43,316 nt of DNA from Octopus sinensis (taxonomy: Eukaryota), in the NCBI RefSeq assembly GCF_006345805.1, contig NW_021835096.1:1-43316 (forward strand). Reading direction: 5' to 3'. The stretch's first letter is position 1. Each line of letters starts with the position of its first letter. Under the pieces are notes generated by a model. That model was not told the origin of the DNA and did no database searches. It saw nothing but the letters and a program-made list of their open reading frames with translations. Made by a program: the position numbers and the translations under genes. This document shows positions 21,865 through 22,728 of this stretch, one piece after another.

Positions 21865-22728
21865 CCACTTGTTTCAGTCATTAGACTGCAACCAAGCTGG
21901 GGCATGGCATTGGAGGATTTTTAGGGGAATCACCCCCATTTTGTTTCCTAAGCCTGATATTTATTCTATCAGTCTATTTTACTGAACCGTTAACTAATGG
22001 GGATGTAAACATACCAACACCAGTTATCAAGTGGTAGTAGAAGACAAACACAGACACAAAAATGCGCGCACACACACACACACACACGATGGGGCTTCTT
22101 TCAGTTTCCATCTATCAGATCCACTTACAAGTGGCTTTGATCAGCTTGTGGATATTGAAGGAGATGTGCCATACAGTAAGACTGAACCTGGAATCAAGTG
22201 GTTCAGAAGCAAGCTTCTTACCACCCAGCCATGCCGGCACCCATCCATTTATAGAAAAAATCTAAGTGCTCTCCGAAGCACTGACTAATAACCTAGACAT
22301 TTTGTTGTTTTGTACACATTCATTGTCTCTGTGTAGGTAAATGCATTTGTTTGTGTCTAAACACACCAGCATCGGTTGCCAAGCGATGTTGGGAGGGGGG
22401 GACAAACACAGAAAGACAAACACACACACATATATATATACATATATACGACGGGCTTCTTTCAGTTTCCGTCTACCAAATCCACTCACAAAGCATTGGT
22501 CGGCCTGAGGCTATAGTAGAAGACACTTGCCCAAGGTGCCACACAGTGGGACTGAACCCGGAACCATGTGGTTGGTTAGCAAGCTTCTTACCACCCAGCC
22601 ATGCCGGCACCCATCCATTTATAGAGAAAATCTAAGTGCTCTCCGAAGCACTGACTAATAACCTAGACATTTTGTTGTTTTGTACACATTCATTGTCTCT
22701 GTGTAGGTAAATGCATTTGTTTGTGTCT
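21865..22728 (-). mobile_element. Old SINE A (21865-22240) and young/old chimeric SINE A (22359-22610) with a 150-bp duplication
   Basis: 22208-22358 is repeated at 22578-22728, including the old SINE 5' end. Confidence 0.85.

What the first reader, a model, noticed from the sequence alone, without database searches (positions are those of the whole stretch)
22208..22728. Chimeric young/old SINE with a 150-bp duplication, evidence for homology-resolved insertion
The body at 22359-22577 is young-type SINE A. Its 5' end (22581-22610, AAGCTTCTTACCACCCAGCCATGCCGGCAC) is identical to the diverged neighbouring old SINE (22211-22240), and the intervening flank is duplicated. This is the clearest local case of an incoming copy switching onto a nearby old copy. 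The same mechanism could unify the tail arrays, trimers and long duplications in this window. The missing 3' tail leaves DNA-repair templating as an alternative.
Basis: partly seen in the sequence, partly recalled or inferred. Interest (0 to 1): 0.7.

Follow-up and report, generated by a model that had tools for sequence, protein, structure and literature searches.

The report
SINE patch inside a repair duplication
A tail-less piece of a young short repeat (SINE) sits between two copies of a 151-base stretch that begins in the head of an older neighbouring SINE; it was likely pasted in when a repairing DNA strand copied a distant SINE and then rejoined at the similar old one, a known kind of repair accident found only once in the DNA sampled from this likely octopus genome.

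Summary
Observation confirmed. A 219-nt tail-less young SINE body (22359-22577) lies between two 151-nt arms (22208-22358, 22578-22728; one difference). The arm begins in register in the head of the old SINE, with the switch inside an 8-nt shared stretch. The flank was originally continuous (5 of 5 paralogues, an outgroup run), so this is an insertion with re-copied flank. Short-read contigs of two samples show the unduplicated allele; two others hint indirectly at the chimeric joint; no contig bridged the left junction, so reads do not yet prove the structure. No near-identical donor was found. Best reading (0.45): DNA-templated repair with two template switches; internally primed retrotransposition is the main rival (0.28). 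No second chimeric case appeared in 1.8 Mb, and the window's arrays have their own joints, so the proposed unification is not supported. Side result: 7 other elements among 1,887 hits, of several classes, abut 84-237-nt direct repeats (0 in a shuffled control). The closest known cases are human two-donor repair duplications, chimeric Alus and large L1 target duplications. The scan's earlier notes cover SINE arrays in this genome, not this structure.

The parts
21850..22240 (-). Old SINE copy A, full length, about 69-71% identical to young copies; its head supplies the landing site
22208..22358 (.). Arm 1 of the 151-nt direct repeat: last 33 nt of A's head plus flank X
22358..22359 (.). Left junction J2: flank joined to an internal SINE position; 1 shared base, and a 6-nt match (GTAAAC) just beyond the junction in the unduplicated allele (22730-22735), with 3 nt missing
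22359..22577 (-). B: young-type SINE body lacking the 3' ~150 nt and tail; no near-identical copy found in G000
22578..22585 (-). Right junction J3: switch zone, 8 bases shared by young head and old head, inside 31/40 imperfect homology
22578..22728 (.). Arm 2 of the direct repeat (old head alleles + flank X), one difference from arm 1 at 22626
22616..23059 (.). Old low-copy repeat that runs unbroken across 22728/22729 (X into Y) in 5 of 5 paralogues: the pre-insertion state
23069..23480 (-). Neighbouring young full-length SINE C; not the donor of B (92.9% over the non-microsatellite core)

Best explanation
The 370 extra bases (a 219-nt young SINE body plus a second copy of a 151-nt local stretch) were likely made in one repair event with two template switches, the SINE part likely copied from a genomic DNA copy elsewhere. 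Shown: the structure, the chimeric head, the originally continuous flank. Inferred: (1) a + strand 3' end near 22358 paired by a 6-nt match (GTAAAC) with the inside of another young SINE and lost 3 nt in doing so; (2) synthesis ran 219 nt towards that SINE's head; (3) the new strand let go and re-paired in register with the head of the old SINE A about 150 nt upstream of the break, through 8 perfect bases within 31/40 homology; (4) synthesis went on through flank X again and into Y. This is the topology called a cycle of templated insertion, or a two-donor repair-mediated duplication.
For: No 3' tail, and an internal start found in no other of 31 internally starting young copies (nearest starts 6 and 16 nt away). 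GTAAAC near the break: 95 of 37,910 random unique points (0.25%) have it within a 16-nt window. In-register homology at the right junction, absent from the 7 other long-repeat insertions (30/40 versus 7-13/40 matches upstream of the arms). B has no close sibling: its 64-mer and 33-mer are unique in G000, and the best of 32 candidate loci differs at 6 of 169 sites, whereas a copy from an active source would be expected to have near-identical relatives (inference). Two of B's five differences from the majority are CpG-type decays. Local duplications are common here: 57 events in 1.44 Mb. Human analogues with one near and one distant donor are described (PMC2671141, passages).
Against: A DNA donor should itself be about 99% identical to B and none was found; it must be unassembled, polymorphic or diverged since. 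Seven other elements, one a full-length copy of the same SINE with its tail, abut 84-237-nt repeats, so insertion machinery here may make long target duplications, which helps the RNA reading. B carries no allele rarer than 4% in its core and 13 of 200 young copies have a neighbour within 1 of 126 sites, so the family may still be active. No contig bridging J2 was listed in 4 of 4 runs laid narrowly.
Confidence: 0.45

Rival explanations
1. One reading: SINE RNA was reverse transcribed at the break, primed internally (endonuclease-independent or internal priming), and the cDNA 3' end annealed to the old SINE's head, giving a 151-nt target duplication.
For: Same topology as a target-site duplication: the element is antisense on +, arm 1 abuts its 3' side. 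Long abutting repeats occur at 7 other elements in the sample. Large L1 duplications over 100 bp and tail-less inserts are reported in cells (PMC5223499, passages); cDNA pairing with nearby homologous DNA is proposed for L1 templated insertions (10.1101/2024.08.27.596794, one passage); endonuclease-independent L1 insertions show microhomology at both ends (PMC1920257, passages). No donor DNA needs to be adjacent.
Against: The 3' tail that the partner LINE enzyme would normally bind (recalled knowledge) is missing with about 150 nt of body; all other five retroelement cases with long repeats keep their tail end. No near-identical siblings of B. Long repeats also flank a MITE and a Helitron-like element, so they are not specific to reverse transcription.
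Confidence: 0.28
2. A complete SINE first inserted with its tail, a longer target duplication and the homology-resolved head; a later microhomology deletion between the two GTAAAC sites removed the tail and the end of arm 1.
For: The arm's right end is defined only by J2, so a later deletion cannot be excluded; GTAAAC fits a deletion as well as priming; 31 of 236 young head-bearing copies lack part of the tail side.
Against: Needs two rare events within the short time allowed by 1 difference in 151 nt; still leaves 3 nt unexplained.
Confidence: 0.12
3. Plain DNA duplication first (tandem duplication of old-SINE half plus X, or unequal crossover between A and a downstream young SINE), then gene conversion or deletion produced the young body.
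For: Tandem duplications that include SINE parts are frequent; an 83-nt identical tract inside an old duplication shows local homogenisation.
Against: Conversion of a 71%-identical 220-nt tract with indels is unlikely; neighbour C and all window copies are only 91-94% identical to B in the core, far below the arms' 99.3%.
Confidence: 0.08
4. Assembly or polishing artefact on a small unplaced contig.
For: The window is a whole 43-kb unplaced contig. Run X1, which matches the flanks with 0 differences over 519, 216 and 106 nt, gives one contig from A's head through X into Y at single-copy depth. The two arms carry the two alleles seen in different runs (G in X1/X3, A in X2, X16, X17).
Against: An artefact would not join two SINEs in register nor create a body with its own allele combination; arm 2 and Y are base-perfect against run X1; contigs of X2 and X17 start exactly at 22578, the node where the two heads would merge.
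Confidence: 0.07

Closest known systems
Repair-mediated duplications with a chimeric two-donor acceptor (PMC2671141; passages seen)
   Same: Insert made of one nearby and one distant template, about 150-nt local part, microhomology and small deletion at the break, no tail
   Different: Here the local donor abuts the break (that study excluded donors within 50 bp) and the distant donor is a SINE joined by SINE-SINE homology; donor not identified
Cycles of templated insertions (PMC7025897; passages)
   Same: Path leaves the chromosome, copies a template, returns upstream and re-replicates a host segment
   Different: Described in human tumours at larger scale; here a germline-scale 370-nt event in an invertebrate assembly
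Chimeric Alu junctions by template switching (PMC6071635, PMC6902434; passages)
   Same: In-register chimeric SINE with under 15 nt perfect match inside imperfect homology
   Different: Those are mostly deletions or duplications between two resident Alus; here one partner is the insert, and the pair is only 71% alike
L1 insertions with large target duplications, templated insertions and endonuclease-independent insertions (PMC5223499, 10.1101/2024.08.27.596794, PMC1920257; passages). Gilbert et al. 2005 could not be read; its chimeric-L1 duplication model is recalled
   Same: Long flanking duplication, tail-less inserts, cDNA pairing with nearby homologous DNA
   Different: RNA template is known there and unproven here; endonuclease-independent events are described with target deletions rather than a 151-nt duplication
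SINE-derived satellites of squamates (PMC10702118; abstract and Discussion read)
   Same: Matches the window's head and tail arrays
   Different: Does not describe the focal structure, whose unit includes flank and two different SINE copies

Membership tests
Classical target-primed SINE insertion | Intact 3' end with tail | tested here: not met
   B ends at position 257 of a 406-nt reference copy
Classical target-primed SINE insertion | Short target duplication (about 5-30 nt) | tested here: not met
   151 nt; this family shows no excess of 9+ nt duplications over control in 107 copies
Repair-mediated / cycle-type templated insertion | Pre-insertion allele continuous at the break | tested here: met
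   5 of 5 paralogues; contigs of X1, X2, X7, X17, X1, X16 from A's head
Repair-mediated / cycle-type templated insertion | Host segment re-replicated after the insert | tested here: met
   151-nt arms, 1 difference
Repair-mediated / cycle-type templated insertion | Microhomology or small deletion at junctions, no tail | tested here: met
   8 nt at J3; 6-nt match with 3 nt lost at J2
Repair-mediated / cycle-type templated insertion | Identifiable genomic donor of the insert | tested here: inconclusive
   None found: best 6 of 169 differences; BLAST scored only 40 of 3,057 candidates; assembly may be incomplete
Chimeric SINE by template switching (Alu/Alu type) | In-register junction between two family members | tested here: met
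Internally primed or endonuclease-independent retrotransposition | RNA template | not testable with these tools
   No intron, non-templated tail or sibling set to show an RNA step
Named octopus SINE families (OK, OR1, OR2 of Ohshima and Okada 1994, names seen in PMC4824008 and PMC4758252 passages; OK recalled) | Sequence identity to the published consensus | not tested
   No consensus available in the tools; ARAGORN found no tRNA in the window and Rfam nothing above gathering score in 21800-23600; A- and B-box-like motifs in the head are judged from recalled consensus

The most novel reading that the evidence does not exclude
In this genome about 0.4% of insertions of several element classes (SINEs, an RTE-like LINE, a MITE, a Helitron-like element) are closed with 80-240-nt flanking duplications, pointing to a host repair step that finishes insertions far from the first nick; resident old SINEs can act as landing pads for that step, making chimeric SINEs and feeding the genome's high load of small duplications.
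Probability: 0.3. Interest if true: 0.55.

Novelty: new member of a known kind. Interest (0 to 1): 0.3.

Why it matters
As a single locus it matters little: it is a clean invertebrate example of a mechanism known from human Alu, L1 and tumour genomes, showing that a switch can occur between SINEs only 71% alike. It would matter more if the side result holds genome-wide: long insertion-flanking duplications are reported at no more than 10% of L1 events in HeLa cells and mostly in repair mutants (PMC5223499), and I found no report for cephalopods. A natural genome with thousands of such scars across element classes would allow the poorly understood second-strand step of insertion to be studied from sequence alone.

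Tried and rejected
Neighbour C as donor: rejected, 92.9% core identity versus 99.3% between arms. L090, the only other hit of B's 30-mer, is not the donor (14 of 169 differences). B as a polishing mosaic: mixed subfamily haplotypes also occur in other copies, so not diagnostic. Depth as a copy-number test: contig/neighbour ratios 1.03-1.07 (X1), 1.07 (X2), 0.91 (X17) against 1.09 (one allele) or 1.18 (both alleles) expected; leans to single copy but rests on one or two neighbours per run. Share of words (best 0.85) does not separate the models. Run X15 had no contig over X in the 76% read: no evidence either way. A scan of metagenome contigs for the flank found 0 matches: uninformative. A first head-allele count used positions one base off and was redone; the chance count used a 7-mer and was redone. 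The looser repeat scan missed the focal repeat itself and was replaced. Two papers could not be read: Srikanta 2009 on internal priming and Gilbert 2005. No supplements were opened.

Full report
Setting. The window is a whole unplaced 43-kb contig of a 2.7-Gb animal genome, G000. That it is an octopus is recalled from the look of the SINEs and stated in earlier scan notes; I did not test it. All SINE copies discussed lie on the minus strand, head to the right.

Anatomy. Old copy A (21850-22240) is followed by flank X, then a young-type body B (22359-22577), then a second copy of 22208-22358 at 22578-22728 with one difference, then Y. B covers positions 13-257 of a 406-nt reference copy and lacks the tail. 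Its head is A's: alleles 22586 T and 22595 C occur together in 1 of 189 young-type copies (B) and 2 of 75 old-type copies. The switch lies in the 8 shared bases 22578-22585; the 40 nt ending there match A in register at 31 of 40, next best 21 of 40. At the left junction one base is shared; the unduplicated allele has GTAAAC at 22730-22735, the same six bases that precede and open B's start in intact copies, and the junction lacks 3 nt relative to a clean join. Such a match falls within 16 nt of 95 of 37,910 random unique points, although 1,046 of 2,553 points match some SINE 6-mer, so a usable match somewhere in the SINE is common.

Order of events. X is single-locus in G000 apart from weak paralogues. 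X and Y are one old low-copy repeat, continuous across 22728/22729 in 5 of 5 paralogues aligned and in the most diverged run X7. So B and the second arm are the additions.

Is it real? Seven runs of short-read contigs were laid (X1 twice). X1, X2, X7 and X17 each have one contig running through X into Y; X3's and X16's contigs cover X and continue for a length equal or close to Y. X1 (521 nt, depth 54.7, no differences from arm 2 and Y) and X16 (523 nt) begin at 22206, with A's own two bases. No listed contig bridged J2 in X1, X3, X15 or X16, and depth over X was flat (only 8 pieces per run are shown). Logan contigs are simplified and lossy (10.1101/2024.07.30.605881, passages); that short links into high-copy repeats are pruned is my recall of Minia, not a call. 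One indirect clue: the 30-mer at 22206 occurs at 16 loci and the 29-mer at 22208 only at the two arms, so an unduplicated allele should give a contig starting at 22206 (X1, X16), while two entries should give a start at 22578, which is where X2 and X17 start. A hidden variant in those samples could also shift the start. I read this as a probably real, probably polymorphic allele, unproven by reads. Against a simple picture: X1/X3 carry arm 2's G on an apparently unduplicated path while X2, X16, X17 carry arm 1's A; this needs exchange between alleles, reversion between the arms, or a polishing effect.

Template. B's 64-mer and 33-mer are unique in G000; 12 other loci match the 64-mer with one mismatch; the 30-mer has one other hit. 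The best of 32 candidate loci differs at 6 of 169 non-microsatellite sites; BLAST scored 40 of 3,057 candidates, best 94%. B differs from the majority at 5 of 126 sites, none rarer than 4%, two CpG-type. Neighbour C is 92.9%. So no donor is known, and RNA versus DNA is not settled.

How common? I sampled 16 blocks of 100 kb from small chromosomes, 200 kb from six unplaced contigs and the window (1.84 Mb; chosen for SINE density, not at random). In the first 1.44 Mb, 2,977 local repeat pairs were filtered to two-copy pairs with 35 or more unique bases and merged to 57 events; only the focal one has a repeat insert that is homologous in register to the upstream sequence yet better matched elsewhere. 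Among 1,887 element hits of 100 nt or more, 72 had a strong flank repeat and 43 were anchored at both ends, against 1 and 0 in shuffled pairs. I dropped 36 of the 43 as arrays or tandem duplications that contain the element or as old weak cases (six checked by alignment, the rest judged from the table), kept the focal case and six others, and added one where a LINE piece lies between. These seven have arms of 84-237 nt at 86-95% identity; the five of them whose changes were counted have more transitions than transversions. They surround a full-length copy of the same SINE, three copies of an element tied to an RTE-like LINE (clade judged from a recalled motif), another tRNA-headed element, a MITE and a Helitron-like element (classes judged by eye). 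None has homology upstream of the arms (7-13 of 40, versus 30 of 40 here). In one search, 7 of 539 near-full-length elements were anchored, 0 of 539 controls.

Arrays. The tail arrays join at an AAAAGAG present both at the tail end and inside the element; the head array joins in TA-rich sequence; its 16 scored units share six alleles that the terminal full-length copy lacks. The same tail breakpoint recurs 19 times in the sample. They fit SINE-derived satellites (PMC10702118) and need no young-onto-old switch.

Mechanism and verdict. One repair event with two switches explains every shown feature; DNA template 0.45, internally primed RNA 0.28, complete insertion then deletion 0.12, duplication then conversion 0.08, artefact 0.07. 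It works like a two-donor repair duplication or cycle of templated insertion with an Alu/Alu-type chimeric joint; it fails the test for a classical SINE insertion. New member of a known kind; interest 0.3. Searches showed no listing on such structures in cephalopods; only listings were seen for most of those papers, and supplements were not opened.

Noticed in passing
window 38485-39074: A second long-repeat insertion in this window: 145-nt arms (94% identical) abutting an F2-family element, junctions in TA-rich sequence, no old element at the arm start.
   Followed up: partly
L041:1880-2535, L149:1440-2280, L046:4130-4965, L063:6432-6973, L065:8010-8751, L067:3984-4533: Six further elements of different classes abutting 84-237-nt direct repeats.
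   Followed up: partly
window 22728: All five paralogues and run X7 have 4 or more extra bases exactly at the J2 breakpoint; the window and runs X1, X2, X17 lack them. It is the only gap in X7's 389-nt piece. Fragile site, or a deletion made with the insertion.
   Followed up: partly
window 5578-8809: 17-unit SINE head array whose units share six alleles not found in the full-length copy that ends it, so the array did not grow from that copy's head; units carry many 1-4 nt indels, possibly residual long-read errors.
   Followed up: partly
window 25335-25648 and 30333-31251: 112-nt SINE tail arrays joined at an internal AAAAGAG repeat; the same breakpoint recurs 19 times and a second one 11 times in the sample.
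   Followed up: partly
window 15784-17432: Plain 816-nt tandem duplication (96.7%) containing a full SINE interrupted at its head by an F19 fragment.
   Followed up: yes
L109:4710-4792 and 8597-8679: 83 identical bases inside an old duplication whose surroundings are only 60-68% alike: recent local conversion or strong constraint.
   Followed up: no
L192:800-2650: Three tandem 612-615-nt units each holding an F4 SINE; the third lacks a 10-nt deletion shared by the first two.
   Followed up: no
sampled blocks (L030-L171): Families F3 and F4 show 10-16-nt target duplications, while F1 (the focal family) and F2 show none above control, suggesting different partner enzymes.
   Followed up: no
L064 (block position 45494-47082): Four-unit SINE head array with a different breakpoint (position 161) followed by split and full copies.
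   Followed up: no
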